Notes: generated by a model from the letters alone, not told the origin. Shown: positions 6,422 through 27,051, numbered from the stretch's first letter. The stretch: 64,000 nucleotides of DNA from an uncultured Candidatus Saccharibacteria bacterium (GCA_964390945.1 CAYMIV010000002.1:1784-65783), one strand, 5' to 3'. Program-made: numbers and translations.

Positions 6422-6491
6422 AAAAACGCCTGGTTCCGCCCACGTAAGGACCCGTCAGCTTGCTGCGGGGATAGTGAGGAGGACGTTTTTA
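6422..6491. repeat. 70-bp direct repeat, copy 2 (supplies the last 12 codons and stop of the anti-sigma-like gene)
   Basis: Near-identical to 6261..6330 (1 mismatch); its reverse complement encodes ...KNVLLTIPAAS*. Confidence 0.85.
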
Positions 6492-7852
6492 TTTGTTGCA
6501 CCCTGTATTTCTTCTGTTGGCAGCATGGCGGAGTTCACCTCTTCTTCGGGCACTGCCTCTGTTGTCGTACCTGGTGTTTCGACATCTGCCGGGATGTCGT
6601 TCGGCAGTTGTGATTCAGAGAGTGGGGCGGTCTGCGTGAGTAGGTCAAGATCATGAGCAAGCGCCATTGCCTGCGCAATTGTTGCCTCTGCCCCATCGAT
6701 ATCATTGGCAGCGAAAGAGGTTGTTGCGCTGTTGATAAGCACTGAGAGTTCCGTCATGCCGAGCAAAACCTTTTCTGCAATTTCCACCCCCTCAAGAAGT
6801 GCGAGTCGCCCCGTGATAAGCGTACTTGTCGCAATAAGTGAGTCGAGGTTCATCTTTGCCGATGCGGCACGTTCTTCGATGGTAGGAATGATAGGAACGA
6901 GCGTTTCAAGTGCAACTGATTCACGAACATCGATATCAGTCATGAATACGATGAGTTTCTGAACAAGGCCGAGCGCACCCATAAGTTCTGACACAGCAGC
7001 GGATTCGTCGGTGGTGCGTGTATTTTCCGCTTCGAGAATAAGGCGGTCGATGTCTGCGAGGCGGCGAGTCATGTCGCCCTGCTCTTCTTGCGTAGCAATC
7101 TTTTTTACCACCTCGAGGAGTTCGTAGGCGCGCGTGGTCTCAAGTTCGATACGTGCCGAAAGACCATCATACGAAGGCGCAGTCGGGTCTTGGTTTTCAG
7201 CAACCCGTTCTCGGGCAGTGTTGACCACATCGATGATTTCGGCAACAGCCGCTTGAGATTCTTCTGTTGATCCGGTATCAAGTACCGCAGATTGTACTTC
7301 TAGCGCCGAACCGAGTGTGACCTGGGCAATTGCAGCCTCTTCCGCATTATTCGTCCGGAGCTCGGCGATACCATTCTGTGCGGCATCTGCGTGAATTTTA
7401 ACGGTTTCTGCAAGTTCGGCACTTACCTCTTTTGTGAGTTTTCCTTCTTCCGCAAGAAGTCGTGCCTCCGAAATTCGCCGTTCCATGAGTTTGGTTTCGA
7501 ACACAACTTTTTCATAGGGAGAATTTGCAAACTGGGATTGGATTTCTTCGTTCACACCAGTTTTTACGGCATAGAGAACGTCTCCCGGAACGGATTGTTC
7601 TGCGACAAAGGGAATGATGATGAAGACTATTGACGCGAGGACGCCGGCTGCAATGCGAACCGGGAGCGAATTGAATGGCAATATGAAAAAGTACGGTGAA
7701 TGAATCGATTCGGCGGGTATTGATTCCGCTTTTTTCGGAAGCGGATGATATTCCATATACGACAAAACGCGCTCACGAAGTTCACGCCGTTCAAGCGCCC
7801 GCAATCGGACTTTTTCTGCATATTTTTGTAAATCAGTTTCGAAAGATTTCAT
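6455..7852 (-). CDS. membrane-anchored anti-sigma-like protein (DUF5667-like helical ectodomain)
   Basis: Immediately downstream of the ECF sigma gene; cytoplasmic N-terminus, single TM (IAAGVLASIVFIIIPFV), long helical Ala/Glu-rich extracytoplasmic domain. Confidence 0.5.
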   Translation of the reverse strand: MKSFETDLQKYAEKVRLRALERRELRERVLSYMEYHPLPKKAESIPAESIHSPYFFILPFNSLPVRIAAGVLASIVFIIIPFVAEQSVPGDVLYAVKTGVNEEIQSQFANSPYEKVVFETKLMERRISEARLLAEEGKLTKEVSAELAETVKIHADAAQNGIAELRTNNAEEAAIAQVTLGSALEVQSAVLDTGSTEESQAAVAEIIDVVNTARERVAENQDPTAPSYDGLSARIELETTRAYELLEVVKKIATQEEQGDMTRRLADIDRLILEAENTRTTDESAAVSELMGALGLVQKLIVFMTDIDVRESVALETLVPIIPTIEERAASAKMNLDSLIATSTLITGRLALLEGVEIAEKVLLGMTELSVLINSATTSFAANDIDGAEATIAQAMALAHDLDLLTQTAPLSESQLPNDIPADVETPGTTTEAVPEEEVNSAMLPTEEIQGATNKNVLLTIPAAS

Positions 7853-7855
7853 GGT

Positions 7856-8500
7856 TTATGATTCGCGTTTGTCTCTTGCCTGTTCTTCGTGAAGCTCGAT
7901 GCGTTCCCGAAGAAGTCGGAGCGCTCGATGAATGCGAACGGAAACAACATTTTCCGTCTCCTCAATAAGGTCGCTTATCTCCTTTGGTCCGAGACCGTCA
8001 ACATAACGAAGCACGATGACTTCCCGGTACACATTCGGTAACTCATGAATGAGTTCTGACGCCTTCCGTGCATCAAGTGCGAACGTGAGCTCCTCAATGG
8101 AACCGCTTTTAAGTTCTTCGAAGGAACCTTCGTTTCTTCCCTCTTCAGCCAGAAGCGAGTCAAGCGAAACCTCTTTTCTCCTCCGGTACTCGTCAATGAT
8201 GAGATTGTTGAGCACTTTGTAGAGAAATGGCTTATATGAATCAATTTCGCGCCCGTCGCGCAGATACCCCCACGCCTTAGTGAAGGTGTCGTGAACCAAT
8301 TCTATTGAGCGCTCCCTGTCTGAGAGGCGATAGGCCGCATGACGAAAGAGTGCGTCAGCATATTCATCAAACGCTTTCAAAAAACGCTCCTCCGGACCCT
8401 CCGAAGGATTTTGACCTGTTTTCCTCCTAGCCTTTTTTGGTTGTACGGCCATGTGGAAACCATTATACGTGAAGACGGCTAAATTGCCGACTTCTTTCAT
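7856..8500 (-). CDS. ECF (sigma-70 family) RNA polymerase sigma factor
   Basis: Region 2 (ELVHDTFTKAWGYL) and region 4 (VIVLRYVDGLGPKEISDLIEETENVVSVRIHRALRLLRE) present; an alternative start at 8452 is possible. Confidence 0.8.
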   Translation of the reverse strand: MKEVGNLAVFTYNGFHMAVQPKKARRKTGQNPSEGPEERFLKAFDEYADALFRHAAYRLSDRERSIELVHDTFTKAWGYLRDGREIDSYKPFLYKVLNNLIIDEYRRRKEVSLDSLLAEEGRNEGSFEELKSGSIEELTFALDARKASELIHELPNVYREVIVLRYVDGLGPKEISDLIEETENVVSVRIHRALRLLRERIELHEEQARDKRES

Positions 8501-8518
8501 AGAATTTACTAAAAAGCG

Positions 8519-9442
8519 CTAAATCCAGCGGTTTGTGCGAAAGAAGTACGCGGTGAGTGAAACCGCGGTCACAATAAGGACAATGATGAGCCAGAACGCG
8601 TGAGGATGATTTTGAAGCGGCAAAGTGACATTCATACCAAAAAGTGAGGAAACGAGTGTCGGAATGGTAAGCACGATGGTAAATGCCGTGAGCATACGAA
8701 TGGTGTAATTGAGACTTTGGGTGAGGGTCGCCTCTGCGGCACTCCGAATATTTTGGATAGTCTTAAGGATTGACATCGCCGAATCAACGAGCTGACTTGC
8801 GTCAATGAGAAGGTCTTCGAGTACCTCCCTTTCTTCTGCGAACATGTGGATGTAGTTCCCTTTCGTGAGATGCTGGAGCCATGCATTTGTGGGAACAAGT
8901 GCGGAAATCGTCTCGTTGAGTTCCTGTTCCAAAAAAACAAGGCGCTGCATATCTCGGCCGCGAATACTGCGTACACGTCCGAGGTCGCGATACACCATAC
9001 GGCGAGTTTTCGTGAGTTTTCGCTCAAACGAAACGATGAGTGCTGACATGAAATCGAGGAAAAGTTTTGTTTTTTGAATCGTTGCAAATTCACTCTTCCC
9101 CCCTATAAAGGGCGACAGGAATGGAACGTCTTGTTCTGCAATGGTAATAAGAAATGATTCACCAAGAATGATGAGTATTGGTGCGGTATCTATGTCAAGA
9201 TCGGGAACATCACATGGATAACGAGTAAAAAAATACGAAACACTTCCCCATTGCTCAAAACGAGGAACCTCAAAAAAGTCCTTTATATCCTCAACAATTG
9301 TATGTTCAAGCGCATAAAGGTCGAAAATGCTCTTGAGTTCATTTTCAGTTGGTGCAACAACGTGGGTCCACACACCAGTGCGTGGTGCATCCAGCATTTC
9401 GAGTGCGCTATTCGATTGTGGTTTATAGTAATGGGCAATCAT
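8519..9442 (-). CDS. corA: CorA-family Mg2+/Co2+ transporter
   Basis: 307 aa with two C-terminal TM helices and the GMN signature (LFGMNV). Confidence 0.9.
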   Translation of the reverse strand: MIAHYYKPQSNSALEMLDAPRTGVWTHVVAPTENELKSIFDLYALEHTIVEDIKDFFEVPRFEQWGSVSYFFTRYPCDVPDLDIDTAPILIILGESFLITIAEQDVPFLSPFIGGKSEFATIQKTKLFLDFMSALIVSFERKLTKTRRMVYRDLGRVRSIRGRDMQRLVFLEQELNETISALVPTNAWLQHLTKGNYIHMFAEEREVLEDLLIDASQLVDSAMSILKTIQNIRSAAEATLTQSLNYTIRMLTAFTIVLTIPTLVSSLFGMNVTLPLQNHPHAFWLIIVLIVTAVSLTAYFFRTNRWI

Positions 9443-9493
9443 AATTAAACACTAGTCCCCCGCCAAGGTCGGGCCATTGGTTTTGCGAGGTTA

Positions 9494-9520
9494 ATATTTG
9501 GTGTTTGTCGGGGAGCCGGG
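9494..9520. repeat. partial duplicate of the tRNA-Pro 3' end plus downstream flank (direct repeat with 9648..9676)
   Basis: atatttggtgtttgtcggggagccggg versus atatttttggtgtttgtcggggagccggg at the real tRNA. Confidence 0.8.
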
Positions 9521-9647
9521 TGAGACAGTCCGCGCGGACTGTCGCAAGACCTTGAGCAGTTGCTGCGAAAGGTGTACAGCGACTGTAAGGCGGCGAACTT
9601 TGTTCGATTCCCTTTTCAAACATCAAAAACATTCAACGCGAGGCCGA
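9521..9647. repeat. 127-bp insert bracketed by the tRNA-Pro 3'-end direct repeats; shares the repeat module with 10726..10812 and 4564..4603
   Basis: Starts tgaga, then hairpin cagtccgcgcggactg, then cgcaagaccttgagca...gcgaaaggtgtac; the same blocks recur at the tRNA-Gly(GCC) locus. Confidence 0.5.
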
Positions 9648-9663
9648 ATATTTTTGGTGTTTG

Positions 9664-9734
9664 TCGGGGAGCCGGGAATCGAACCCGGACCTCATGGTCC
9701 CAAACCATGAACACTACCACTATGCTACACCCCG
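9664..9734 (-). tRNA. tRNA-Pro(UGG)
   Basis: Manual cloverleaf: acceptor CGGGGTG/CTCCCCG (one T-T mismatch at 6:67), anticodon stem CATGG/CCATG with loop TTTGGGA (anticodon UGG), T-arm CCGGG-TTCGATT-CCCGG. Confidence 0.72.
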
Positions 9735-9884
9735 AATTTTGCCAGAGCATATTAACACATAGCAGCATATTTCCATAAATATTATTCACAATAGTAAGAT
9801 TGCGTGGTTTGTGGTGACAAACTGTATAGAGAGAAGAACTATTCAAAAAATATATTGGGTTTGATTATGATGTTTCACATGAAA

Positions 9885-10283
9885 CTAATCAATAATAATA
9901 TTTTCAATAATTTTGACTCTTGCATACTTTTCACGTGAAACAATTTTTACAGCAATGACATCAATTTGAAATTTGCCATTATAATTGCTTGAAGTTAACC
10001 AGGTTTCAATAACCCTTGCAATTCGACACAGTTTATCATTTCGAACCTTGTCTTCAGGGCGCCACGTTTCATGTGAAACCGCATACTCAAGATCAGACAT
10101 CGTTTCATATGAAACAGATTTAACTTCAACAAAATGAACCACGTCGCCTAATAGCGAAATAATATCGATTTCACCCCATTTTTTGAAATAATTTCTTTCA
10201 ACTATTTTGTGCCTCCTTGAAACAAGCCATTTTGCAGCGATATCTTCACCAATTTTGCCGATAATTTTATTGTCGGTCATCAA
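9885..10283 (-). CDS. YraN/UPF0102-like endonuclease-fold protein (PD-(D/E)xK-like)
   Basis: Core GEDIAAKWLVSRRHKIVERNYFKKWGEIDIISL...VHFVEVKS resembles the UPF0102/YraN family; it carries an internal insertion with repeated VS[RHY]E[KT] motifs. Confidence 0.5.
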   Translation of the reverse strand: MMTDNKIIGKIGEDIAAKWLVSRRHKIVERNYFKKWGEIDIISLLGDVVHFVEVKSVSYETMSDLEYAVSHETWRPEDKVRNDKLCRIARVIETWLTSSNYNGKFQIDVIAVKIVSREKYARVKIIENIIID

Positions 10284-10707
10284 GATATTATATCATTCGA
10301 TTAAAATTACTGGCGTGGCGTTTCACGTGAAACGTTACTTTCCAAATATGACGTGTGCACAACTAATTTTTACCCATATTTTAAGCCGTATAGTTAAGGA
10401 CATTCAGTGTTTATGTCTATGTCCTTTATACACATATTAAGGTGTTTGTTCACAGTTCGATGGTGGTTTTGTGAATGTGCTATTTCGCCAAACTTTAGTT
10501 ATGGTTCAGGATATTGGACCAGGCGTACATTCCAGGAGAATTCTATTTAACTCCTTTTGAGGTTTAAATTCGCGTGAATTTTGTATTTGATGTGCATTTT
10601 GAATCTAAGGCTCACACAGCGATTTTGATGCTTTCGGCGTGGCGAAGGATGGGGCATCGCCCCGATTCACATAAGCGAAACGACCTGAAAACATGTTCAG
10701 GTCGTTT

Positions 10708-10812
10708 CGTTTTGTGCGGCCAGGGTGAGAAGCAATCAATATTGCTTCGCAAGACCTTGAGCATGAATATGCGAAAGGTGTACTGCTCCCGTAGGGAGAA
10801 TCGAAACTTACA
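10708..10812. repeat. partial tRNA-Gly(GCC) 3'-end copy plus the shared repeat module
   Basis: ttttgtgcggccaggg, then tgaga, hairpin agcaatcaatattgcttc, cgcaagaccttgagca, gcgaaaggtgtactgctcccgtagggagaatcgaaac (the last block is identical to 4564..4603). Confidence 0.55.
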
Positions 10813-10881
10813 GTTTCAGTGCAGGTTGTCGCTATTTTCTGCAAAATAGCTGTCAACCTTTTCGATTCTCCAGCCCAAAAG

Positions 10882-10917
10882 GAAAGTACCAGATGTAAAA
10901 ACTGGTACTTTCTTTTT
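10882..10917. terminator. terminator hairpin downstream of the minus-strand tRNA-Gly(GCC)
   Basis: gaaagtaccag-atgtaaaaa-ctggtactttc followed by ttttt. Confidence 0.65.
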
Positions 10918-10918
10918 G

Positions 10919-10989
10919 TGCGGCCAGGGAGAATCGAACTCCCGACTAATCCTTGGCAAGGACTCGTTATACCACTTAACCATGGCCGC
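10919..10989 (-). tRNA. tRNA-Gly(GCC)
   Basis: Acceptor GCGGCCA/TGGCCGC, anticodon stem AGTCC/GGATT with loop TTGCCAA (anticodon GCC), T-arm GGGAG-TTCGATT-CTCCC, discriminator A. Confidence 0.85.
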
Positions 10990-11057
10990 GAATTTATGGT
11001 TTATGGATTATAGTATGTTAGACAGAGGCATGCAATGGATTAATAGAAAACCCCGAA

Positions 11058-11345
11058 TTATTCGGGGCGATTGTGGTTCATGAGATCCTGGAGCGTGAAA
11101 ATGCCGGCAAAACTAAGGCACATTTGAATCGCAGCGAGATGGCGGTTCGCCTTCCCACACTGCGTTTCTACGTTGATATTCTTGAAGTTTTCAACAAGAT
11201 ACCTGGCGTGTGAAAGAATTTCCTGTTTAGTGCACGACTCAAATGTTCTTGACGGGTCTATTCGTCTTGGTTCAACGCCATATTCGATGAGGCTGAAGAA
11301 CTGCTCGTATTTCGCGAGAATTGACAATATTTTAGCCGATGTCAT
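11058..11345 (-). CDS. hypothetical protein
   Basis: 95-aa ORF between two tRNAs; no recognisable domain. Confidence 0.3.
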   Translation of the reverse strand: MTSAKILSILAKYEQFFSLIEYGVEPRRIDPSRTFESCTKQEILSHARYLVENFKNINVETQCGKANRHLAAIQMCLSFAGIFTLQDLMNHNRPE

Positions 11346-11617
11346 GGAAATCTCCTCGGTGTTCCACGTGCAACACTACTTGAAGGAGCGGGGAAGTGCA
11401 AGGTGCACATATCCAAATGTGGTCACAAATCACTAGGTATCTTTGTTCGCTTCACTCCAAACATACTAAGTGTTCTCGACCCCACCTCGACATTTTTCTT
11501 TCTTTATTGAAAGAAAAATAAGCCTGCGTTTGAACACGCGTACGCAAGTGAAGCATTTCACTTGCTAGACTCAAAAACCATGCTTTCTTAAAAGAAAGGT
11601 TTTTGAGTCTACGCGTG

Positions 11618-11689
11618 TGCACCCACCAGGACTCGAACCTGGCACGACGGTTCCGAAGACCGTAATGATATCCACTTCACCATGGGTGC
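11618..11689 (-). tRNA. tRNA-Arg(UCG)
   Basis: Acceptor GCACCCA/TGGGTGC, anticodon stem ACGGT/ACCGT with loop CTTCGGA (anticodon UCG), T-arm CCAGG-TTCGAGT-CCTGG. It overlaps the spurious 5' extension of the cca ORF. Confidence 0.8.
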
Positions 11690-11769
11690 GTATTGGCGGT
11701 TCGCCTATCATACGTTTGACAAAGCCAAATTGCAATGCAAAAAGGGCTTTGAACTGCTATAATCGTCGC

Positions 11770-13239
11770 ATGATAGTGCGAAACGACATCCCAAAAGAAG
11801 TCCAACATGTGGCTGATACCCTAGAAAACAGGGGATTTGAGGCGCATCTCGTTGGCGGTTGTGTGCGCGATATACTCCTTGGGAGAAAACCAAATGACTG
11901 GGATATTACAACCAATGCCCACCCTACGGAAATTGAGAGTCTTTTCCCGGAAACATTCATAAACAACGACTATGGTACCGTGGGGGTGGTTACGGAAAGC
12001 GAAGATTCCACCCTTAAAGTCATCGAGGTAACGCCGTACCGAACGGAATCAACATATTCTGATGCGCGACGACCCGACTCAGTTGAATTTGGTGTCTCGC
12101 TTGAAGAGGATCTTAAACGGCGAGATTTTACCGTAAATGCCATTGCGTATCGCCTGAGGGGTGAAGCAGTCGTTGATCCTTATGGGGGGCGTGAAGATAT
12201 TAAGGAAAAACGACTTCGGGCTGTGGGGAAGGCGACGGAGCGATTTTCTGAAGACGCGCTCCGCATGATGCGCGCGGTACGGCTCGCGGTTGAACTTGGT
12301 TTTGTCATCGATAATGAAACACTCGATGCAATTGTTCTAAATAGTGCTAATTTGAGCCGTATTTCAAAAGAACGAATCCGCGACGAATTTGTTCGAATAC
12401 TGGAATCAAAGCAACCGATGCAGGGTGTCATTTTCCTTGAAAAACTAAAATTGCTTCAGCACGTCGCCCCAGACCTTCTGCGTGGTATTGGGGTGGAACA
12501 AAATCAAGCACATGCATACGATGTGTATGAACACCTCCTCCGCACAATGCAGCACGCAGCCGATAAGGATTGGGTATTCGACGTGCGTCTGGCCGGTTTG
12601 TTTCACGATGTTTCAAAGCCCGAGACTCGCCGTTGGTCCAAGGAAAAGAACGATTGGACATTCCACGGTCACGAGGTTGTTGGGGCGAAAGTAACAAAAA
12701 AAGCCCTCCAGGAACTCAAATTTCCACGTGAAAAGATAGAAAAAATTGTAAAACTCGTGCGCTGGCATATGTTTTTCAGCGACCCAGACCAAGTGACACT
12801 TTCAGCGGTCAGGCGAACGATCGCAAATGTCGGGGAAGAGCATATTTGGGAACTCTTGCAGCTGAGGCGATGCGACCGTATCGGTACCGGGCGCCCGAAA
12901 GAACAGCCGTTTCGACTACGTAAATACACCGCAATGGTTGAGGAAGCGCTCCGTGACCCCATTTCGGTCAAGATGCTCAAGATTGATGGAACGCGCATTA
13001 TGGAAATAACAGGGGAGAGGCCAAGTAAAAAACTTGGAGATACACTCCACGCACTTCTTGAGGAAGTGCTCGATGAACCAGCAAAAAATACGGCTGATTA
13101 CCTCGAGGGTAGGGCACAAGTGCTTATGGCAATGAGCGAATCGGAACTTGCGGCTCTCGGTGAGGCGGGTAAGGCAAAGCGCGATGCTGAGGAAGCAGCC
13201 GCAATCAAAGATTTGGGCCGAAAACACCACGTTTGTTGA
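11770..13239 (+). CDS. cca: CCA-adding enzyme / tRNA nucleotidyltransferase with HD domain
   Basis: Pol-beta-like head motif (GGCVRDILLG...DWDITT) and HD domain; the start is reset to the ATG at 11770 because the upstream part of the ORF covers tRNA-Arg. Confidence 0.85.
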   Translation: MIVRNDIPKEVQHVADTLENRGFEAHLVGGCVRDILLGRKPNDWDITTNAHPTEIESLFPETFINNDYGTVGVVTESEDSTLKVIEVTPYRTESTYSDARRPDSVEFGVSLEEDLKRRDFTVNAIAYRLRGEAVVDPYGGREDIKEKRLRAVGKATERFSEDALRMMRAVRLAVELGFVIDNETLDAIVLNSANLSRISKERIRDEFVRILESKQPMQGVIFLEKLKLLQHVAPDLLRGIGVEQNQAHAYDVYEHLLRTMQHAADKDWVFDVRLAGLFHDVSKPETRRWSKEKNDWTFHGHEVVGAKVTKKALQELKFPREKIEKIVKLVRWHMFFSDPDQVTLSAVRRTIANVGEEHIWELLQLRRCDRIGTGRPKEQPFRLRKYTAMVEEALRDPISVKMLKIDGTRIMEITGERPSKKLGDTLHALLEEVLDEPAKNTADYLEGRAQVLMAMSESELAALGEAGKAKRDAEEAAAIKDLGRKHHVC

Positions 13240-13257
13240 AATAGCGCTGAAGAAAAT

Positions 13258-13316
13258 AAAAAGGCCCGAGGGATCGATTGCCGACTTTGCTCGGCGCCCG
13301 ATCCTTCGGGCCTTAT
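13258..13316. terminator. long imperfect hairpin after cca
   Basis: ggcccgagggatcg ... cgatccttcgggcc stem with a 22-nt loop. Confidence 0.45.
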
Positions 13317-18206: not shown

Positions 18207-18240
18207 GAAAAGCCCCGCCACTGGGGCTTTTCGTTGAATA
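18207..18240 (+). terminator. rho-independent terminator
   Basis: aaaagccccgcc-actg-gggcttttcg. Confidence 0.7.
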
Positions 18241-18269
18241 AGACAAAAGGTTTTGCTAGGCTACTTTGT

Positions 18270-18671
18270 ATGGAATCATCTCAATACTCCTGGTATGCGT
18301 CGCTCATTAAGCCGGAGTGGGCACCGCCGTCATGGCTCTTCGGTCCGGTGTGGACCGTGCTCTATATTATTATTTTCTCCACCTACGGATACGTTTTTTA
18401 TCAAGTCCTCACCGGGAAGTTACCAAAGACACTTGCCATTCCATTCATACTCAATCTTGTATTCAACTTCGCCTTTACCCCGATTCAATTCGGCCTCAAA
18501 AACAATCTTCTCGCTTCACTCGATATTTCGTTTGTTCTTGCAACCCTCGTGTGGGCGCTCATTGTTGTGTATCCACACGCAAAGTGGGTCGCGTTCGCAA
18601 ACATTCCGTACCTGCTGTGGGTATGTTTTGCTACGGTTCTCCAGTTCACCATTACATACCTTAATCTCTAA
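18270..18671 (+). CDS. tspO: TspO/MBR-family tryptophan-rich sensory protein
   Basis: Motifs PEWAPPSWLFGPVWTVLY and five TM helices; the upstream part of the ORF overlaps the terminator, so the ATG at 18270 is used. Confidence 0.8.
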   Translation: MESSQYSWYASLIKPEWAPPSWLFGPVWTVLYIIIFSTYGYVFYQVLTGKLPKTLAIPFILNLVFNFAFTPIQFGLKNNLLASLDISFVLATLVWALIVVYPHAKWVAFANIPYLLWVCFATVLQFTITYLNL

Positions 18672-18680
18672 TGCCTCTTT

Positions 18681-19157: not shown

Positions 19158-19952
19158 TTAATCCTTTGCGCTCATGATGATGCTCAAATCTTTTGAATCA
19201 ATTGAGCCATCAACGTTGAAATCATATCGCGGGTCGTCGCCGGTCATGTTGAGTATGAAGATGCTCACATCGACGAGGGAGTGTTTGCCATCGCCGCTCA
19301 GATCTGTGTCGGGCCGCTCATGGTGAATGGCAATTCTTGCGGTGGTCGGCCCGGGCAGCGCAACCGTCTCCTGTTCGACACGCGCATTTTCAACGGCAAA
19401 GATTGCATCAATCGATTCTTCGAGCGGGACGTCAGTGCCAAGTCCATCGTGTTTTAGAATGCGGGCTTCAGAAAAATGGATAGCGGCATCACCCGCAGAG
19501 AGTGATCGGAACGTTATTGTAATGAGTGTTCCATCTCCTATGAACCCGCCCCGACGAGTTGTTCCACCAATGAAGCCGAGCGTGCCATCTCCATTTTCAT
19601 ACCATGGGGCGCGCGCCCACAGGTCGGCGAGTGAGGTGTTATAGTCAATCGACTCGACCGATAGTTTCGTGTGGTCGAAGCCGATGTCTCCCTTGAATGC
19701 ATTCACCGGCACACCCGCAGCAATGCGTACCGAGACGGCGAATGTTTCACCAACCAACACCCCGCCGCGAAGCGGTTCAAGATACATGTCGGCAATCGGT
19801 TCCGTCGCAACGGGAACCACAAAGAGACCGATAAGGGAGAGGAAGGCAACGAGCGCACTCGCAATGAGCGCGCTTTGGGGAATCATTCCTCGGACATCAC
19901 GTCTCCATCTGTTCATCAGATAAGTATAGCGGATATCAGACCGACCAAACAC
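19158..19952 (-). CDS. secreted protein with a cohesin-like domain and a C-terminal dockerin-like repeat pair
   Basis: Signal/TM segment, then a beta-rich domain, then tandem calcium-binding dockerin-type repeats (DLSGDGKHSLVDVSIFI... / DFNVDGSIDSKDLSIIM). Confidence 0.5.
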   Translation of the reverse strand: MFGRSDIRYTYLMNRWRRDVRGMIPQSALIASALVAFLSLIGLFVVPVATEPIADMYLEPLRGGVLVGETFAVSVRIAAGVPVNAFKGDIGFDHTKLSVESIDYNTSLADLWARAPWYENGDGTLGFIGGTTRRGGFIGDGTLITITFRSLSAGDAAIHFSEARILKHDGLGTDVPLEESIDAIFAVENARVEQETVALPGPTTARIAIHHERPDTDLSGDGKHSLVDVSIFILNMTGDDPRYDFNVDGSIDSKDLSIIMSAKD

Positions 19953-19988
19953 TTAACCTTTCGGGCTATTGGTGCCATACTTGTCGAT

Positions 19989-20579
19989 ATGCAGGATGAT
20001 GAGTTTTACACGAACGAATGTGTTCACGGCAACACAGAGGCTTTCGGCACGCTCTATGATCGATATGCGGAAAAAATATATCGTTTTGTGTACTACAAAA
20101 CATTTTCGAAAGAACTTGCCGAAGATATCGTGAGCGAAGTCTTCGTAAAAGCGCTCGAAAAAATTTCTTCCTTTGATGCAGGGAAGGGTTCATTCCCAAC
20201 GTGGCTCTATCGAATCGCACGAAACGCAGTCATCGACCATTACCGCACACGAAAGGCGCTCGTTCCGATAGACGACGTGTTTGATGTTGCGTTCGATGAA
20301 CGAACTGTTGAGCAACTCGACGCACTCCGCTCGCTTGCGCGCGTCCAAGAATTTCTCGAATCGCTGAATCCCAAACAGCGCGAAATCATTGTGCTTCGCA
20401 TCTGGGAAGAACTCTCATATCGGGAAATTGCTGCTATTGTGGGCGGTACGGAAGATGGTGTGAAAATGGCATTCTCGCGGGGTATTCGCGAAGTTCGTGA
20501 AAAGTGCGGTCTGCTCGGGGTGGCGCTTCTCTATGCACTCTCAGCATCCGCAGCGTTACCTTTCAGCAAACTTTCGTAA
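19989..20579 (+). CDS. ECF sigma factor
   Basis: Region 2 (IVSEVFVKALEK...TWLYRIARNAVIDHYR) and region 4 (EIIVLRIWEELSYREIAAIVGGTEDGVKMAFSRG); start reset to the ATG at 19989. Confidence 0.8.
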   Translation: MQDDEFYTNECVHGNTEAFGTLYDRYAEKIYRFVYYKTFSKELAEDIVSEVFVKALEKISSFDAGKGSFPTWLYRIARNAVIDHYRTRKALVPIDDVFDVAFDERTVEQLDALRSLARVQEFLESLNPKQREIIVLRIWEELSYREIAAIVGGTEDGVKMAFSRGIREVREKCGLLGVALLYALSASAALPFSKLS

Positions 20580-20587
20580 TACATACT

Positions 20588-21361
20588 ATGAACACCTCAA
20601 ACGACACAATCATCCTCGACATCCTGTCACTCGATCCGGAACTTGCTTCGCGGGAAAGCGAGATTCGCGATATTGTGGCATTGTTTGTAGGTGCGAAACC
20701 GACTGTAGAAATTGACGGGGTATTTCTCAATCGCCTCCGGGCTCACATTGTGAAACGCCCAGTCGAAAGGTCGATTCCATCGCCTTGGTTTCAGGCATTT
20801 ATAATCCGCCTCGCTCCAGTTTCGGCAATTGCGCTCCTTGTGCTCATTCTTGCACCTTCGTTTCTTACCCGACCGAATGAAGTAGGCGATAGTTTAATGT
20901 CCGTACAAGAGGTCTCCCTTGAAACGTCTGCTCCACTAAGCGCGAAGCGTGCAGCCGAAGGACCGACTGCTGATATGTTTTCGATGACAAGCATTGAAAA
21001 TGAGAATGTGCAGGAAGAAAGTTTTGCGATAGGTCCACAGATGCCGGGCACCATTGTTCATGTTGATTTTGTTTCGCTCCATGAGTGGGGATTCATCGGT
21101 ATTCATGAGAATGCGGATGGGGTTTTGGGAATACTCGTCGGCACAAGTACCCTTCTCGCTCCGGGAGTCACCAAAGAAATTTCTGTTTCACTTACTCGAC
21201 CTTCGAGGGTGGGAGAAACCTATTTTGGAATTGCGTACAAAGATAACGGAGATGGTGTCTTTGATGTGTCGGGCGATGTTCCCATTACTGACGCATCAAA
21301 TGTTTCGCCCCTCACCACGCTCTTCTCGATTGAATCCTCGATTCCGCTGAACCGGCAATGA
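20588..21361 (+). CDS. membrane-anchored anti-sigma-like protein
   Basis: Starts 9 nt after the sigma stop; N-terminal cytoplasmic segment, one TM helix, extracytoplasmic beta-rich domain. Confidence 0.45.
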   Translation: MNTSNDTIILDILSLDPELASRESEIRDIVALFVGAKPTVEIDGVFLNRLRAHIVKRPVERSIPSPWFQAFIIRLAPVSAIALLVLILAPSFLTRPNEVGDSLMSVQEVSLETSAPLSAKRAAEGPTADMFSMTSIENENVQEESFAIGPQMPGTIVHVDFVSLHEWGFIGIHENADGVLGILVGTSTLLAPGVTKEISVSLTRPSRVGETYFGIAYKDNGDGVFDVSGDVPITDASNVSPLTTLFSIESSIPLNRQ

Positions 21362-21429
21362 TGCGAAGCGTTACCGTTTCCAGATGATTTCGTATACAAA
21401 AGAATAGACGATTTATTATTTTAATTCGA

Positions 21430-22446
21430 TTGATTATGGAATTCTTTAAGACGATGACACAAAATCCGATGCGTTTTTTGAAGAGTGCGGGGGTCATTTT
21501 CATTGGACTCGCGGTGGTTGTCGTAGCACTCAACGTCATGGTCACAACCAGAGGCGGACTCGATGACCTCACGGTCGGTACTCAAAAAACTTCGGAAATG
21601 CGCCTCGACGAATCGATGGGTGTTCCGTCTCTCTCGATGCGAAACGTCATCGAGGATGAAATGCTGCTACAATCGCCGGATGGTGGATACACGCCGGGCG
21701 ACACTGCGGAAGCGTTCGAGGTCAAAGAATACAACGTACGCATTGAGACGCGAAACCTCGACAGGGACTGCGGTGTAGTTCGAGCGCTCAGGGAGCGAGA
21801 CGATGTTATTTTTGAAAACACCTCCGAATATGAGCGCGGGTGCGCGTATGCGTTCAAGGTTCGGCGGGGGAGTGTCGAGGATGTGCTCGGGGTGATTGCA
21901 TCACTCGACCCACGCGAGCTCTCCGAGAATGCGTATACTATCAAGCGCGAAATCGATGACTTTACGAGCGAGGTACAAATTCTTGAAAATAAACTGGCGT
22001 CGCTCGACGCCACACTGAAAGATGCAGCAACATCGTATGGAAATATCACCGCGCTTGCGACAAGCCGTGGCGACGTCGAGAGTCTCGCAAAAATTATTGA
22101 GAGCAAACTCATTATTCTCGAACGTCTCACGTCCTCAAAAATCGAAACAGTGAATCAGCTCGAGCGGGTAAACCGCGCGAAGGCGGAAGCGCTCGACCGG
22201 CTCGAGTACACGCACATGACTGTTTCAGTGTACGAGACTGTATTCGCGGATATCGAGAACATTAAGGATTCCTGGAAATCAACCGTGCGGGAATTCGTAC
22301 TTGAAGCAAACTCGCTCGCGCAGGATGTGAGCGTCGGGCTCGTGGTGCTCATACTTACGCTCGCAAAGTTTGCACTATATTTCTTCGTACTCCTCTTTGT
22401 CGCAAAGTTTGGATGGGCATTCACGCGTAAAAATTGGAACGATTGA
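21430..22446 (+). CDS. DUF4349-like membrane protein with coiled-coil
   Basis: N-terminal and C-terminal TM helices flank a coiled-coil region; the architecture resembles DUF4349. Confidence 0.4.
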   Translation: MIMEFFKTMTQNPMRFLKSAGVIFIGLAVVVVALNVMVTTRGGLDDLTVGTQKTSEMRLDESMGVPSLSMRNVIEDEMLLQSPDGGYTPGDTAEAFEVKEYNVRIETRNLDRDCGVVRALRERDDVIFENTSEYERGCAYAFKVRRGSVEDVLGVIASLDPRELSENAYTIKREIDDFTSEVQILENKLASLDATLKDAATSYGNITALATSRGDVESLAKIIESKLIILERLTSSKIETVNQLERVNRAKAEALDRLEYTHMTVSVYETVFADIENIKDSWKSTVREFVLEANSLAQDVSVGLVVLILTLAKFALYFFVLLFVAKFGWAFTRKNWND

Positions 22447-23045
22447 GTCGTGTAAAGAAAAAACCGGGGACTTCCCCGGTTTGTCATGAAGAACGGTGCT
22501 GTTGTTCTGGGCTCCGAATATTCCTTGATGATGAGTGCGATGACCTCGGGCTCCCTGCTCTCGAAGGCGGTGTATGCCGAAACCTCACCAGTCCTTCCGC
22601 ACGCACCGCGGAGCAACGGTTGGTCTTCGCGTGTCGCGGGGTATACCTCGCACTTGTACCATAAGGTGCCTTCTCGTTTCTTGAGTATGCTTTCGTAGTC
22701 CGAAAGTGAAACGCGCACCCCGCCCGCCGCCACAAGTGCGTTTACCGTGCGTGTGCGTGCGAGACGCTCGGATTTGTTGGTTGGCTTTCCGTGAATCTCA
22801 ACAACGACGGCGCCGAGCTCCACAACAGCAACTCGATCTGATGTTCCGTACCATCGGTCTAAGAGGGTAAGACCGTAAAGTGACACCAGAGCAATGCCGA
22901 CAGCAACGAGCGCGACGGCACACCCCATGACAAATACCGCGATTGGACTTAGTGTCGGGTATAATGCGTTGCGTTGTGAAGACACATCAACCTCCCCTAT
23001 CACGTTTGACGACACGACTGTGCTCGGCGGGTATGATACCGCCAA
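22155..23045 (-). CDS. hypothetical membrane-anchored protein (3' extent uncertain)
   Basis: N-terminal TM and a plausible globular domain up to about residue 200; the C-terminal ~95 aa overlap the 3' end of the convergent DUF4349 gene and look like non-coding translation. Confidence 0.3.
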   Translation of the reverse strand: MAVSYPPSTVVSSNVIGEVDVSSQRNALYPTLSPIAVFVMGCAVALVAVGIALVSLYGLTLLDRWYGTSDRVAVVELGAVVVEIHGKPTNKSERLARTRTVNALVAAGGVRVSLSDYESILKKREGTLWYKCEVYPATREDQPLLRGACGRTGEVSAYTAFESREPEVIALIIKEYSEPRTTAPFFMTNRGSPRFFLYTTQSFQFLRVNAHPNFATKRSTKKYSANFASVSMSTTSPTLTSCASEFASSTNSRTVDFQESLMFSISANTVSYTETVMCVYSSRSSASAFARFTRSS

Positions 23046-23538
23046 GCTCGCAATCCTTGCGATAAAAATCTTCGAGTACCTTCACGACCTTTTGGTGCGG
23101 TACCTTTTCGACGTTGCGTACGCAAGAGCCGCCGAACTTTCCCTCCATGAAACATGATGCCGTCGCACCCTCTTTTGAGAGATTGAGTGCGCAATCAAAG
23201 ACGAGCAACTCTCCCACTCCAACTTGTTCAAGTCCGGCGTGCTCGAGAGCTGTGATGATGTGCTCGGCATCCTGCGCGCTTCCGGACGAGTGAATGGCAA
23301 TCCGAACAGATGGGAGTTTGAGTCCCGCTCGCGAAGGTGCGAGTAACGCCACTCTGCTTTTGGCGGGGGGCACTGGGTTAGTCGGCGCCTCAAACATCGC
23401 CACGAGACAAACAAGGAGCAGAATGACGAACAAAACTGTTCGTGTCGCCCGCCCCACATGCCCGCCCCGACGCACAACTCCGCGACCGTTACAAAACGCG
23501 CGTTTTGCAGACATTTTTCCTCCGATGAGTGAGTACAA
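22987..23538 (-). CDS. LytR_C-domain protein, membrane-anchored
   Basis: TM helix, then VRIAIHSSGSAQDAEHIITALEHAGLEQV, which is characteristic of the LytR/CpsA/Psr C-terminal domain. Confidence 0.45.
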   Translation of the reverse strand: MYSLIGGKMSAKRAFCNGRGVVRRGGHVGRATRTVLFVILLLVCLVAMFEAPTNPVPPAKSRVALLAPSRAGLKLPSVRIAIHSSGSAQDAEHIITALEHAGLEQVGVGELLVFDCALNLSKEGATASCFMEGKFGGSCVRNVEKVPHQKVVKVLEDFYRKDCELGGIIPAEHSRVVKRDRGG

Positions 23539-23638
23539 AGTGCAGTTATCTTTGCGGATTATGCATTAATTATCCATGGGAGTCAAACTTTTCTTGTAAC
23601 GCTCTGCGGGCTCGTCTGCATTGGTGTAAAGTAGAGAC

Positions 23639-24178
23639 ATGGAAATGGCGAACGAAAGACTCCGTGCGTGCATAGCGGCAAGTGCGGGGGGCGACCAGGA
23701 ACATTACCGAGAACTCTATGAACATCTCGTCGATCGGGTCTTTGCATACGTGCGTTCACGCACTAACACACGTGAGCAGGCGACCGATACAACACAGGAT
23801 GTTTTCATAGAACTTTGGAAATCCCTTCCACGGTTTACGTATCACTCGCGTGAGCAGTTTTACTCATACGTATACGTAATCGCCAAGCGACGCCTCGCGG
23901 CACTCTATGGAGCAAAACAAACCGAGGCGCTTCCCGAAGAAGAAATCCTTGAGGGCGAGGAAGCGCGTCCAGGTGACGAGACGAGTGATGCGATCATGCG
24001 CGCACTTGCAACACTCGACGAGGAAACGAGAGAAATAATAACTCTCCACCACTGGCTTCGGTACACGTTTAAAGAAATTGGGGACTTCATCGGGATGGGT
24101 GAAACTGCCGTACGAGTGCGCCACCACCGAGCACTCAAGTTGTTACAAGCACGCTTATCAAATGCATCGTATGAATAA
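23639..24178 (+). CDS. ECF sigma factor
   Basis: Region 2 (TQDVFIELWKSLPRF) and region 4 (EIITLHHWLRYTFKEIGDFIGMGETAVRVRHHRALKLL). Confidence 0.8.
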   Translation: MEMANERLRACIAASAGGDQEHYRELYEHLVDRVFAYVRSRTNTREQATDTTQDVFIELWKSLPRFTYHSREQFYSYVYVIAKRRLAALYGAKQTEALPEEEILEGEEARPGDETSDAIMRALATLDEETREIITLHHWLRYTFKEIGDFIGMGETAVRVRHHRALKLLQARLSNASYE

Positions 24179-25172
24179 TCATAACGATATCGAAAAAGTA
24201 CTTGCGGGGAGTGTTCCGACCCTCCTTCCTTCCGAGCGTGCACTGCTATGGGCGTCTCTTTCTTCAAAATTGGAAAAACGCACCTCGGTTCCATCCCCAT
24301 TTACATTTTACGCACGCCATACATATATGGTTGTTTCCGCTGCACTCGTGGTCGCCCTCGTTCTTGGGGGTGGAGGAACTGCCCTTGCGTCAAATGCGGC
24401 CCGTCCCGGGGATTTGTTATTTCCCATTGACCGGGTAATCGAAAACACCCACCTCTCCCTCTTGCGCGACGAAAATTCAAGAAATATCCTCCGTGCGCAG
24501 TTGTCAGAAGAGCGTATTATCGAGCTTCGTGAAATTCTCGACGAGGAATCTGTCTCAGTGGAGGTGGTCGCTCCCGCGAGCGAAGGTGTTGCTACTGGAA
24601 CTTTGTGGGGGGAGCGGGGTGGGAAAAAATTGAGAGAGAGCGGGGAGGGGAGGGTCGGGTTGGCTGTAAATGAAATCTTGTCCTTCCTTGACGAAACGCA
24701 CGCCGACGACGATTCGAGGGTTCGCGTCTTTGAGAAGGTTTTTGGTGAAATCGAAGAACTCTCCCTTTCCGTAGACGTGGACGATTCGCGCCCGAAATTG
24801 GAAGATGGTGGGCGTGTCGAGATACGACGCGACGAGAGTCGAGGCAGTTCGCTTCGCGTCATGTATCGTGGAGACCAAATCCGCTTTGAAAAGAAGAATG
24901 ATGAAATTCGTTTCCGGAACGAGGTTGAACGTACCACAAAAGAGAAAATATCCGACCAGAGGCTCTCTGACGACACGCGTGAAGAATTCGAGGTGGAGGT
25001 GGAGGGCGACGAAGACGGGGGTATTTCTTCGGAAAATGGGAGCATGGATCTTCGCTGGAACGATGATGATAGTGACGGTGGAGAAAAGGGGGATGATAGG
25101 GATGAGGATGAGGATGAGGATGAGGATGGTGGTGGTGATGATGATTCTGACGAGAGAGAAGATGATGATTAG
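24162..25172 (+). CDS. anti-sigma-like membrane protein with an extremely acidic C-terminal tail
   Basis: Overlaps the sigma stop by 17 nt; one TM helix, a helical ectodomain and a tail ...DDDSDGGEKGDDRDEDEDEDEDGGGDDDSDEREDDD. Confidence 0.5.
   Translation: MHRMNNHNDIEKVLAGSVPTLLPSERALLWASLSSKLEKRTSVPSPFTFYARHTYMVVSAALVVALVLGGGGTALASNAARPGDLLFPIDRVIENTHLSLLRDENSRNILRAQLSEERIIELREILDEESVSVEVVAPASEGVATGTLWGERGGKKLRESGEGRVGLAVNEILSFLDETHADDDSRVRVFEKVFGEIEELSLSVDVDDSRPKLEDGGRVEIRRDESRGSSLRVMYRGDQIRFEKKNDEIRFRNEVERTTKEKISDQRLSDDTREEFEVEVEGDEDGGISSENGSMDLRWNDDDSDGGEKGDDRDEDEDEDEDGGGDDDSDEREDDD
25101..25127 (+). repeat. tandem hexanucleotide (GATGAG)x4 plus GAT/GGT triplets encoding the poly-Asp/Glu tail
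   Basis: gatgaggatgaggatgaggatgaggat, a candidate slippage site. Confidence 0.8.
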
Positions 25173-27040: not shown

Positions 27041-27051
27041 TCGATTGAATT

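What the first reader, a model, noticed from the sequence alone, without database searches (positions are those of the whole stretch)
6455..25172. Three ECF sigma factors, each paired with a membrane-anchored DUF5667-like anti-sigma-like gene and flanked by secreted-protein genes
The sigma/anti-sigma-like pairs are 8500..7856 / 7852..6455, 19989..20579 / 20588..21361 and 23639..24178 / 24162..25172. Each partner has a cytoplasmic N-terminus, one TM helix and a large ectodomain. Neighbouring genes encode secreted proteins: an S1 protease, a cohesin-dockerin protein divergent from the second sigma, and Gmad2, alpha-toroid and LRR proteins after the third. Three ECF modules in 20 kb is a lot for a reduced genome and suggests that envelope- or host-contact signalling is a major regulatory mode. 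The three anti-sigma-like ectodomains are unrelated to each other, which hints at distinct signals.
Basis: partly seen in the sequence, partly recalled or inferred. Interest (0 to 1): 0.5.

Follow-up and report, generated by a model that had tools for sequence, protein, structure and literature searches.

The report
Three ECF sigma / membrane-partner operons
A small-genome Paceibacteria (CPR) chromosome carries three real, evolutionarily conserved pairs of an alternative sigma factor and a single-pass membrane partner that most likely holds it inactive; this is an ordinary kind of bacterial signalling, but it uses partner families that nobody has characterised.

Summary
The three ECF sigma genes are real: all have Sigma70_r2 and r4 and score above the TIGR02937 cut-off. 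Each is followed by a tightly coupled gene for a single-pass membrane protein. The pairing is conserved elsewhere in 77/77, 17/17 and 7/7 related loci.

- Only partners 1 and 3 carry DUF5667. Partner 2 carries DUF7282.
- Ectodomains 1 and 3 are therefore related, not unrelated.
- The first 48 nt of the "sig1 ORF" (8453-8500) are a promoter, conserved at the DNA level in 76/77 orthologous loci: TGAAAG-N16-CGTCT-N5-TATAAT. The real start is 8452.
- No flanking secreted-protein gene carries any of the three promoter motifs.

Sig3 has a conserved ECF-type promoter (TGTAACG-N16-GCAT). Sig2 has a sigma-70-like extended -10 promoter placed for a leaderless mRNA, and a conserved hydrophobic C-terminal tail.

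The partners' short cytoplasmic N-termini (35-65 aa) match no known anti-sigma domain family. In partner 1 this segment is the most conserved part of the protein.

Best reading: three ECF sigma/anti-sigma switches with non-canonical short anti-sigma segments. Sigma binding and the signals are inferred, not shown. Interest is moderate.

The parts
8453..8499 (-). sig1 promoter: -35-like TGAAAGAA (8499-8492), 16-nt spacer after TGAAAG, -10-like CGTCT (8477-8473), then TATAAT (8467-8462) 9 nt before the ATG
   Evidence: The same motif is present in 76/77 orthologous loci plus the window. The -35 G[A/T]AAGAA was not part of the search pattern and is still nearly invariant. The PWM score here is 27.5 bits; the next best site in the window scores 13.5, which is shuffle level.
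7856..8452 (-). sig1, ECF sigma factor (198 aa; revised start)
   Evidence: Sigma70_r2 and Sigma70_r4_2. TIGR02937 63.1 bits, cut-off 42.9. An orthologue lies directly upstream of the DUF5667 partner in 77/77 loci.
6455..7852 (-). partner 1: N-terminal helix 2-35, disordered linker, TM 63-87, DUF5667 plus an all-alpha ectodomain, disordered tail. Putative anti-sigma.
   Evidence: DUF5667 35.6 bits. 542 homologues. AF2 pLDDT 78.7. Residues 1-40 have the highest conservation in the protein, 74% mean pairwise identity. It starts 3 nt after the sig1 stop.
5082..6254 (+). membrane-anchored Trypsin_2 (S1) protease, convergent with partner 1; candidate site-1 protease (weak inference)
   Evidence: Trypsin_2 45.4 bits. 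Convergent downstream of the partner in 63/80 loci, and within 300 nt in 33. It lies in a generally syntenic block and carries no sig1-type promoter.
19953..19981 (+). sig2 promoter: TTAACC-N17-CATACT with TGn before the -10, ending 7 nt before the ATG (predicts a leaderless mRNA)
   Evidence: Conserved in orthologous loci. It is the only match in the window.
19989..20579 (+). sig2, ECF sigma (196 aa) with a conserved hydrophobic C-terminal tail (aa 173-196, nt 20505-20576)
   Evidence: Sigma70_r2 74.9 bits, r4_2, Sigma70_ECF. TIGR02937 104.5 bits. The tail CGP-hydrophobic-LPFxxLS is conserved in orthologues. Kyte-Doolittle mean 1.76 over aa 174-192.
20588..21361 (+). partner 2: conserved ~60-aa cytoplasmic N-terminus, TM 70-88, Pro/Thr-rich linker, DUF7282 Ig-like ectodomain. 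Putative anti-sigma.
   Evidence: DUF7282 50 bits. A sigma lies directly upstream in 17/17 loci. The family has 200 representatives at E <= 1e-10. N-terminal alignment.
21436..22446 (+). membrane protein (N- and C-terminal TM segments, coiled coil). It follows partner 2 in several relatives and has a weak DUF4349-like signal.
   Evidence: A homologue follows the partner in L008, L092 and L097, and a 351-aa gene follows it in L174. DUF4349 E = 0.009, below threshold, in the L092 orthologue. The terminator hairpin 22461-22482 lies just after the gene.
19158..19916 (-). divergent membrane-anchored protein with sub-threshold cohesin and dockerin matches
   Evidence: Cohesin 22.9 bits, gathering score 24.1; dockerin 17 bits. 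It is conserved next to sig2 in L008 and L097, and a 251-aa gene occupies that position in L174.
23595..23621 (+). sig3 promoter: TGTAACG-N16-GCAT (ECF-type -35 and -10)
   Evidence: GTAACG is present at the same distance upstream of the sigma gene in 7/7 loci, with the -10 in 6/7. It is the only perfect match in the window.
23639..24178 (+). sig3, ECF sigma (179 aa)
   Evidence: Sigma70_r2 and Sigma70_r4_2. TIGR02937 80.5 bits.
24162..25172 (+). partner 3: short N-terminal helix, PSPF motif, TM 57-75, DUF5667, charged repeats, acidic tail. Putative anti-sigma. The start may instead be 24171.
   Evidence: DUF5667 27.7 bits, gathering score 27. 37 homologues. A sigma lies directly upstream in 7/7 loci. 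It overlaps the end of sig3.
25257..27648 (+). Gmad2 (25257-25802), a 412-aa secreted protein (25802-27040) and an LRR protein (27079-27648). Same strand as sig3 with short gaps; possibly co-transcribed.
   Evidence: Gmad2 40.1 bits; LRR_8 63.1 bits; no Pfam match for 25802-27040. The same trio lies after the sig3 module in L008. No terminator was found between 25172 and 25257, and no sig3-type promoter lies upstream.

Best explanation
The region holds three independent ECF sigma / membrane-anchored anti-sigma switches in a Paceibacteria (Kaiserbacteria-like, CPR) chromosome.

Each sigma gene is translationally coupled to a gene for an N-in single-pass membrane protein. In the proposed mechanism:
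1. The partner's short, conserved cytoplasmic helical N-terminus (35-65 aa) sequesters the sigma at the membrane.
2. The partner's extracytoplasmic domain senses an envelope or external cue. That domain is DUF5667 plus helical repeats in partner 1, a DUF7282 Ig-like domain in partner 2, and DUF5667 plus charged repeats and an acidic tail in partner 3.
3. Release of the sigma, probably through proteolysis of the partner, lets it direct RNA polymerase to its targets.

For sig1 and sig3 the targets include their own operons, through conserved ECF-type promoters: TGAAAG-N16-CGTCT and TGTAACG-N16-GCAT. Sig1 also has an overlapping TATAAT that would give basal, nearly leaderless expression. Sig2 appears to be driven by a sigma-70-type extended -10 promoter and not by itself.

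Shown: gene and domain identities, membrane topology features, conserved pairing, and conserved promoter motifs.

Inferred: sigma binding by the N-terminus, proteolytic release, autoregulation, and the nature of the signals.
For: - ECF identity of all three sigmas.
- Each partner has one TM segment with a short N-terminus before it.
- The genes are coupled: a 3-nt gap, an 8-nt gap and an overlap. In orthologous loci the sig1 ORF ends within a few nucleotides of the partner start.
- Pairing is conserved in 77/77, 17/17 and 7/7 loci.
- DUF5667 ORFs lie downstream of unrelated ECF sigmas that were chosen by sigma similarity only, 8/8 tested.
- In partner 1 the cytoplasmic residues 1-40 are the most conserved segment: 74% mean pairwise identity, against 47% for most of the ectodomain. 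A conserved cytoplasmic binding partner would explain this.
- The three partner N-terminus-plus-TM segments align weakly to each other by hhalign (80%, 79% and 56% probability). They share a helix / (I/V)PSP[YFW] / TM layout.
- The ectodomains diverge faster than the sigmas between the window and its syntenic relative: 33% against 70% for module 2, and 38% against 60% for module 3. This is typical of sensor domains.
- Conserved ECF-style promoters lie upstream of sig1 (76/77 loci) and sig3 (7/7 loci). PMC7826278 states that ECFs usually autoregulate and are co-encoded with their regulators.
Against: - No partner N-terminus matches any Pfam or NCBIfam anti-sigma model, even at E <= 10.
- At 35-65 aa the N-termini are shorter than class I anti-sigma domains, which average 101 +/- 33 aa (PMC7406223).
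- The hhalign signal drops to about 30% probability when the TM segment is removed.
- No site-2 protease was seen among the window ORFs scanned.
- The adjacent trypsin-like protease lies in a broadly syntenic block, so its adjacency is weak evidence.
- The sig1 promoter's invariant TATAAT could mean that the housekeeping sigma drives it.
Confidence: 0.72

Rival explanations
1. The partners are not anti-sigma factors. They are co-transcribed envelope proteins, either structural or effector members of each sigma's regulon or positive co-factors. The sigmas would then be controlled in some other way, for example by transcription alone.
For: There is no similarity to any known anti-sigma domain. 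The cytoplasmic parts are very short. The fold search of partner 1 returns only generic helical bundles such as EzrA and designed repeat proteins. Sig1 has a perfect TATAAT and belongs to a core syntenic block, which is compatible with constitutive expression.
Against: The cytoplasmic N-terminus of partner 1 is the most conserved part of the protein. That is hard to explain for an extracytoplasmic structural protein. Adjacency to a sigma gene is universal across three unrelated ectodomain types and in distant phyla. This is the signature that is used to predict ECF regulators (PMC7826278).
Confidence: 0.15
2. The three modules and the flanking secreted proteins (S1 protease, cohesin-like protein, Gmad2, 412-aa protein, LRR) form one coordinated envelope or host-contact signalling island, with the neighbours as the regulons.
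For: All neighbours have an N-terminal anchor or signal-like segment. The whole arrangement is kept in a relative at about 60% identity. An LRR gene lies near sig3-type modules in L009 and L170, and a Gmad2 gene follows a sig2 module in L098. Gmad2, the 412-aa protein and LRR lie on the same strand as sig3, with no terminator between them.
Against: None of the three promoter motifs occurs upstream of any neighbour in the window. No recurrent second sig1-type site appears in 849 kb of orthologous flanks. Other sig3-type loci have quite different neighbours. The module 1 neighbourhood (UPF0102, CorA, protease, HU, RNase Y, ClpP) is ordinary conserved synteny.
Confidence: 0.2
3. Sig2 is itself membrane-tethered through its conserved hydrophobic C-terminal tail (tail-anchored). 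It would be released by cleavage of its own tail, with the DUF7282 partner acting as co-sensor and not as a classical sequestering anti-sigma.
For: The tail CGP-[~15 hydrophobic]-LPF-x-x-[LFI]S-COOH is conserved in the window, L008, L090-L098, L174 and L176; L099-L101 keep the hydrophobic stretch but end differently, and L175 carries a shorter tail. Its Kyte-Doolittle mean is 1.76 over 19 residues. Sig2 lacks an ECF-type promoter of its own. Membrane-tethered ECFs that are activated by proteolysis are known, such as IutY and groups ECF48/52/53 (PMC8999054).
Against: The hydrophobic stretch is short and only moderately hydrophobic. AF2 simply extends the last sigma-4 helix at low confidence. 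The known tethered ECFs have long extensions and lack a separate partner, whereas here a separate partner is always present.
Confidence: 0.13

Closest known systems
Canonical ECF sigma / single-pass anti-sigma pairs controlled by regulated proteolysis (E. coli RpoE-RseA, B. subtilis SigW-RsiW, SigV-RsiV)
   Same: The sigma is a two-domain (sigma-2 plus sigma-4) factor. A co-transcribed N-in single-pass membrane partner follows it. An ECF-style -35/-10 promoter lies upstream of the operon for sig1 and sig3. The sig1 motif TGAAAG-N16-CGTCT resembles Bacillus ECF promoters as I recall them; that comparison was not tested here.
   Different: The partner cytoplasmic parts are 35-65 aa and match no class I anti-sigma domain model. 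No zinc-binding Hx3Cx2C motif is present. No cognate site-1 or site-2 protease has been identified.
Class II anti-sigma factors (CnrY of Cupriavidus, NepR)
   Same: They have a very short cytoplasmic sigma-binding segment built from one or two helices. CnrY is also membrane-anchored. [quoted passage not shown]
   Different: There is no sequence similarity. CnrY has almost no ectodomain and depends on a separate sensor (CnrX), whereas the partners here carry large ectodomains of 170-380 aa.
RsbN-BldN (class III anti-sigma, Streptomyces)
   Same: The best named NCBIfam match for sig2 is the BldN-family model. The partner 2 N-terminus (~60 aa) looks from its sequence like about three helices, which is what is described for the class III domain (PMC7406223).
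   Different: Sig2 scores 130 bits against a 206-bit cut-off, so it is not a BldN equivalog. The similarity of partner 2 to RsbN was not tested, and its ectodomain is DUF7282.
ECF sigmas with membrane-spanning C-terminal extensions (IutY, ECF48/52/53)
   Same: Sig2 has a hydrophobic extension after region 4.
   Different: The extension is only ~24 aa, with no fused anti-sigma or sensor domain, and a separate membrane partner is always present.

Membership tests
ECF (group 4) sigma-70 family | [quoted passage not shown] | tested here: met
   Sigma70_r2 and Sigma70_r4_2 are above the gathering score in all three. TIGR02937 scores 63.1, 104.5 and 80.5 bits against a cut-off of 42.9. Lengths are 179-198 aa.
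ECF (group 4) sigma-70 family | Membership of a named ECF equivalog or group (SigW, BldN, ShbA and so on) | tested here: not met
   All equivalog models score far below their cut-offs, for example BldN 130 against 206, SigW 69 against 209 and ShbA 80 against 209. ECF Hub group assignment is not available here.
ECF sigma/anti-sigma operon | The regulator gene is adjacent and co-oriented, and this is conserved across relatives | tested here: met
   77/77, 17/17 and 7/7.
ECF sigma/anti-sigma operon | Conserved ECF-type promoter upstream of the sigma gene (autoregulation) | tested here: inconclusive
   Conserved -35/-10 motifs are present for sig1 and sig3. Sig2 has a sigma-70-like extended -10 instead. 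Which sigma uses each promoter was not testable.
Class I anti-sigma domain (ASDI; zf-HC2, RskA, RseA_N type) | A four-helix cytoplasmic domain of roughly 100 aa that ASDI/Pfam models recognise | tested here: not met
   No Pfam or NCBIfam hit for the partners or for their isolated N-termini at E <= 10. The cytoplasmic parts are 35-65 aa. AF2 shows a single helix, residues 2-35, in partner 1.
Class II anti-sigma domain (CnrY/NepR-like) | A short one- or two-helix segment that wraps sigma-2 and sigma-4 | tested here: inconclusive
   Length and helicity are compatible. There is no sequence match. A complex model could not be run.
Anti-sigma factor (functional definition) | Binds its cognate sigma and inhibits transcription | not testable with these tools
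   This needs a multimer prediction or an experiment.
DUF5667 (PF18915) | Pfam score at or above the gathering score of 27 | tested here: met
   Partner 1 scores 35.6 bits and partner 3 scores 27.7 bits, which is borderline. Partner 2 has no match, so the feature is not met for that protein.
DUF7282 (PF23951) | Pfam score at or above the gathering score of 27 | tested here: met
   Partner 2 scores 50 bits over aa 153-236. Orthologues are annotated PF23951.
Regulated intramembrane proteolysis pathway | A cognate site-1 protease and a site-2 (M50) protease | not tested
   A Trypsin_2 protease is syntenic with module 1, but no functional link is shown. No M50 protease was seen among the window ORFs scanned. 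The rest of the genome is unavailable.

The most novel reading that the evidence does not exclude
The DUF5667 and DUF7282 partners may define a new, minimal class of ECF anti-sigma domain: one short helix plus a PSP[YFW] juxtamembrane motif. This class would be shared by three ectodomain types and be widespread beyond CPR. In addition, sig2 may be a tail-anchored sigma factor whose own C-terminal membrane helix, conserved down to a C-terminal [DE][LF]S, takes part in its release. Membrane-tethered ECFs with long fused extensions are known, but the reviews read here do not describe a sigma with only a short hydrophobic tail plus a separate membrane partner.
Probability: 0.15. Interest if true: 0.7.

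Novelty: new variant of a known kind. Interest (0 to 1): 0.4.

Why it matters
CPR/Patescibacteria have tiny genomes and few recognisable regulators, and how they sense hosts or their envelope state is largely unknown.

- **A core regulatory module.** One ECF/DUF5667 pair is a core, syntenic feature of a large Paceibacteria clade. It was found in 108 species-level genomes and has more than 540 protein homologues. Its promoter is conserved almost base for base across proteins that are only 35-60% identical. This gives a concrete, testable module.
- **A working function for two uncharacterised families.** The analysis assigns a working function, ECF-linked membrane regulator and probable anti-sigma, to DUF5667 and to the N-term/TM/DUF7282 architecture. 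A full-text search found no paper mentioning DUF5667 or PF18915.
- **Tools for follow-up.** The defined promoter motifs allow regulon prediction in complete genomes. They could also supply orthogonal sigma/promoter parts.

The overall logic is standard ECF signalling, so the advance is incremental unless the short N-terminal module or the sig2 tail proves to work by a new mechanism.

Tried and rejected
1. Modelling a sigma1/partner 1 complex. 
2. Sequence search of PDB with the partner 1 profile gave no hit at E <= 1.
4. Regulon search. Strict and PWM scans for the sig1, sig2 and sig3 promoter motifs in the window found only the site upstream of each sigma gene. In 849 kb of module 1 flanks there were 10 scattered extra hits and no recurrent position. 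I therefore dropped the idea that the trypsin protease or CorA is a sig1 target.
5. Word-index homology search for partner 2 found only itself. This looked like an orphan, but the exhaustive HMMER search overturned it with 1,244 hits.
6. Homology among the three partner N-termini. hhalign gives about 80% probability with the TM segment included and about 30% without it. I kept this as suggestive only.
7. Literature. No paper was found on DUF5667 or PF18915, and none on ECF signalling in Patescibacteria or Parcubacteria. The main text of the ECF reclassification paper does not mention candidate phyla, and its supplements are not held.
8. An Rfam scan of the window found only the four tRNAs, so the conserved sig1 leader is not a known RNA family.

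Full report
**What is there**

The window is a chromosomal segment of a Paceibacteria/Kaiserbacteria-like (CPR) bacterium. The closest relatives of its genes are MAGs labelled Kaiserbacteria, Paceibacterota and Nomurabacteria. The window also holds yidC, dnaA and dnaN, a type-IV-secretion-like cluster, PNPase, RNase Y and ClpP.

The three sigmas carry Sigma70_r2 and Sigma70_r4_2. They exceed the TIGR02937 ECF cut-off of 42.9 bits with 63.1, 104.5 and 80.5 bits, but they reach no equivalog cut-off. They share only 23-29% identity with each other, and no further paralogue occurs in the 64 kb.

Each partner has exactly one hydrophobic TM segment, at aa 65-83, 70-88 and 57-75.
- Partner 1 has DUF5667 (35.6 bits).
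- Partner 3 has DUF5667 at 27.7 bits, just over the gathering score of 27.
- Partner 2 has DUF7282 (50 bits) and no DUF5667.

So 'DUF5667-like' fits two of the three. Ectodomains 1 and 3 are related at their membrane-proximal end; both begin with PGD(V/L)L(Y/F) right after the TM segment.

**Module 1 is a core, deeply conserved unit**

Partner 1 has 542 detected homologues, mostly full-length at about 50% identity. A scan of one genome per species found 108 relatives. In the 80 loci kept, a sig1 orthologue ends within a few nucleotides of the partner start in all 77 loci that have upstream DNA.

The neighbourhood is itself syntenic: UPF0102, CorA, sigma, partner, convergent Trypsin_2 protease, HU, RNase Y. 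The protease is convergent downstream in 63/80 loci and within 300 nt in 33. I therefore treat it only as a weak candidate site-1 protease.

The AF2 model of partner 1 (pLDDT 78.7) has these parts:
- a single helix at residues 2-35
- a disordered linker
- a TM helix at 63-87
- an all-alpha ectodomain with pLDDT around 90
- a disordered tail

**The 'N-terminus' of sig1 is a promoter**

I aligned the DNA upstream of the 77 orthologues. This showed that the first 16 codons of the window ORF (8453-8500) belong to a motif conserved at the nucleotide level whatever the frame or the apparent start codon (ATG, GTG, TTG, CTG or none). The consensus is tG[A/T]AAGAA ... CGTCT-N5-TATAATGGTT-N6-ATG.

The motif is present in 76/77 loci plus the window. 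The remaining locus keeps the -35 and -10 parts, with an insertion after them. The G[A/T]AAGAA block was not part of the search pattern and is still nearly invariant.

Read as TGAAAG-N16-CGTCT, this is an ECF-style promoter. The TATAAT that overlaps it lies 9 nt before the ATG and would give an almost leaderless transcript from a housekeeping-type promoter. The sig1 gene is therefore 7856-8452.

A PWM built from these sites scores 27.5 bits at this position. Nothing else in the window scores above shuffle level. In 849 kb of orthologous flanks there is no recurrent second site.

**Module 2**

The word-index search made partner 2 look like an orphan. The exhaustive search found 1,244 relatives, 200 of them at E <= 1e-10. 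Many are full-length proteins of 240-280 aa.

A sigma lies directly upstream in every locus examined:
- the syntenic relative L008
- 12/12 metagenome loci
- 3/3 further members, including ones at only 25-28% identity

The family has a conserved cytoplasmic N-terminus of about 60 aa (LDPxL ... FxxxLRxxL), a TM segment, a variable Pro/Thr-rich linker and DUF7282. A membrane protein with a coiled coil (21436-22446, weakly DUF4349-like) follows in several loci.

The conserved element upstream of sig2 is TTAAC[CG]-N17-TGnCATACT, ending 6-8 nt before the ATG. This is a sigma-70-type extended -10 promoter placed for a leaderless mRNA, not an ECF-type promoter.

Sig2 orthologues share a C-terminal tail: CGP, about 15 hydrophobic residues, then LPFxx[LFI]S at the C-terminus. 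The window, L008, L090-L098, L174 and L176 carry it in full. L099-L101 keep the hydrophobic stretch but end differently, and L175 has a shorter tail. Its Kyte-Doolittle mean is 1.76. AF2 merely extends the last helix at low confidence.

**Module 3**

Partner 3 has 37 detected homologues. In all seven loci examined a sigma lies directly upstream.

Upstream of the sigma, all seven loci share TGTAACG(T/C)T, and six of seven have (G/C)CAT 16 nt later. The window copy at 23595-23621 is the only perfect match in the 64 kb.

Gmad2, the 412-aa protein and the LRR protein follow on the same strand with short gaps and no detected terminator. The same trio follows in L008. Other sig3-type loci have different neighbours.

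**Generality of DUF5667**

The metagenome scan used sig2 as the query and also returned many unrelated ECF loci at or below 41% identity. In eight of these the ORF directly downstream of the sigma is a DUF5667 protein above the Pfam gathering score. DUF5667 is therefore a recurrent ECF partner outside this lineage too.

**Are the partners anti-sigma factors?**

In favour:
- universal adjacency and coupling to a sigma gene
- N-in single-pass topology
- strong constraint on the short cytoplasmic segment
- a shared layout of helix, (I/V)PSP[YFW] motif and TM segment
- weak profile-profile similarity between the three families (80%, 79% and 56% probability with the TM segment, about 30% without it)
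- ectodomains that evolve much faster than their sigmas (33% against 70%, and 38% against 60%)

Against:
- no match to any known anti-sigma domain model, even at E <= 10
- lengths of 35-65 aa, below those of class I domains, which average 101 +/- 33 aa; domains shorter than 50 aa are regarded as possible class II (PMC7406223)
- no complex model could be computed

I conclude that these are very probably cognate membrane regulators of the ECFs and most likely anti-sigma factors with a non-canonical short sigma-binding segment. Binding and the release mechanism remain inferred.

**The wider interpretation**

None of the neighbouring secreted-protein genes carries any of the three promoter motifs, so regulon membership is not shown. 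Co-transcription with the sigma operons remains possible for 21436-22446 and for 25257-27648.

Three ECFs in a genome of about 1 Mb is close to the average density implied by roughly 10 ECFs per bacterial genome (PMC7826278). The genome size is taken from a complete relative of 994,774 bp. So 'a lot for a reduced genome' is not demonstrated. What is notable is that the three modules sit within 18 kb and that the arrangement is kept in a relative at about 60% identity.

**Novelty**

The logic is standard ECF signalling. The new elements are:
- the link between two uncharacterised protein families and ECF sigmas
- the unusually short N-terminal module
- a promoter conserved almost base for base across a large clade
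- the hydrophobic tail of sig2

The searchable literature has nothing on DUF5667/PF18915 or on ECF signalling in Patescibacteria. I rate this a new variant of a known kind, of moderate interest.

Noticed in passing
window 20505-20576 (sig2 aa 173-196); also L008, L090-L101, L174, L176: The sig2 family carries a conserved C-terminal hydrophobic tail: CGP, ~15 hydrophobic residues, then LPFxx[LFI]S-COOH. It is a TM candidate by Kyte-Doolittle. Sig1 and sig3 lack it. This may be a tail-anchored ECF sigma that also has a separate membrane partner.
   Followed up: partly
L090:4831, L092:6525, L095:2867, L096:5505, L098:5484, L176:3893: In six sig2-type loci a small two-TM protein gene (68-87 aa, MYEKAK...PGAP...GLELxGxRLxFLDR) follows the module. 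It is preceded by GTAAGA-N16-CGTCA, which closely resembles the sig1-type promoter. This is a candidate sig2 (or sig1) target and hints at similar promoter specificity between the two. The gene is absent from the window.
   Followed up: partly
window 22155-23045 (-) and 22461-22482: The long minus-strand ORF reads through a strong bidirectional terminator hairpin (AAACCGGGGAAGTCCCCGGTTT followed by a T-run) and overlaps gene 21436-22446 by about 290 nt. Similarity to the relative's 153-aa gene covers only 22832-22512, so the real gene is probably shorter.
   Followed up: partly
window 22987-23538 (-) and 22512-22832 (-): Two small membrane-anchored proteins with no Pfam match separate modules 2 and 3. 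They are poorly conserved against the syntenic relative (24-30% identity). A sigma-70-like promoter (TTGACT-17-CATAAT) at 23586-23558 lies divergent from the sig3 promoter.
   Followed up: no
window 53234-57364 and 56000-58000: This is the replication-origin region: yidC (-), dnaA, dnaN, and an AT-rich stretch (GC 0.36) where cumulative GC skew turns.
   Followed up: no
window 41725-51449: A type-IV-secretion or competence-like cluster. It includes a TrbL/VirB6-like protein (44064-46028, just below the gathering score), a TraG/VirB4-like P-loop ATPase (47752-49551), and several large ORFs with no Pfam match.
   Followed up: no
window 18270-18632 (+): A TspO/MBR-family gene, 75% identical to the relative's annotated TspO_MBR gene, lies between the SurA-like gene and AhpC. 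An overlapping ORF in another frame could easily be mistaken for the gene.
   Followed up: partly
window 11617-11689: The GTG-start version of the CCA-adding enzyme ORF (11617-13239) overlaps tRNA-Arg on the opposite strand. The real start is probably the internal Met near aa 52.
   Followed up: no
L010, L011, L013 and many other loci: Many TPA-assembled MAGs titled 'uncultured Candidatus Saccharibacteria bacterium' carry this Paceibacteria-type locus. They share synteny with Kaiserbacteria and Paceibacterota MAGs, so the organism label in those records looks generic or wrong.
   Followed up: no
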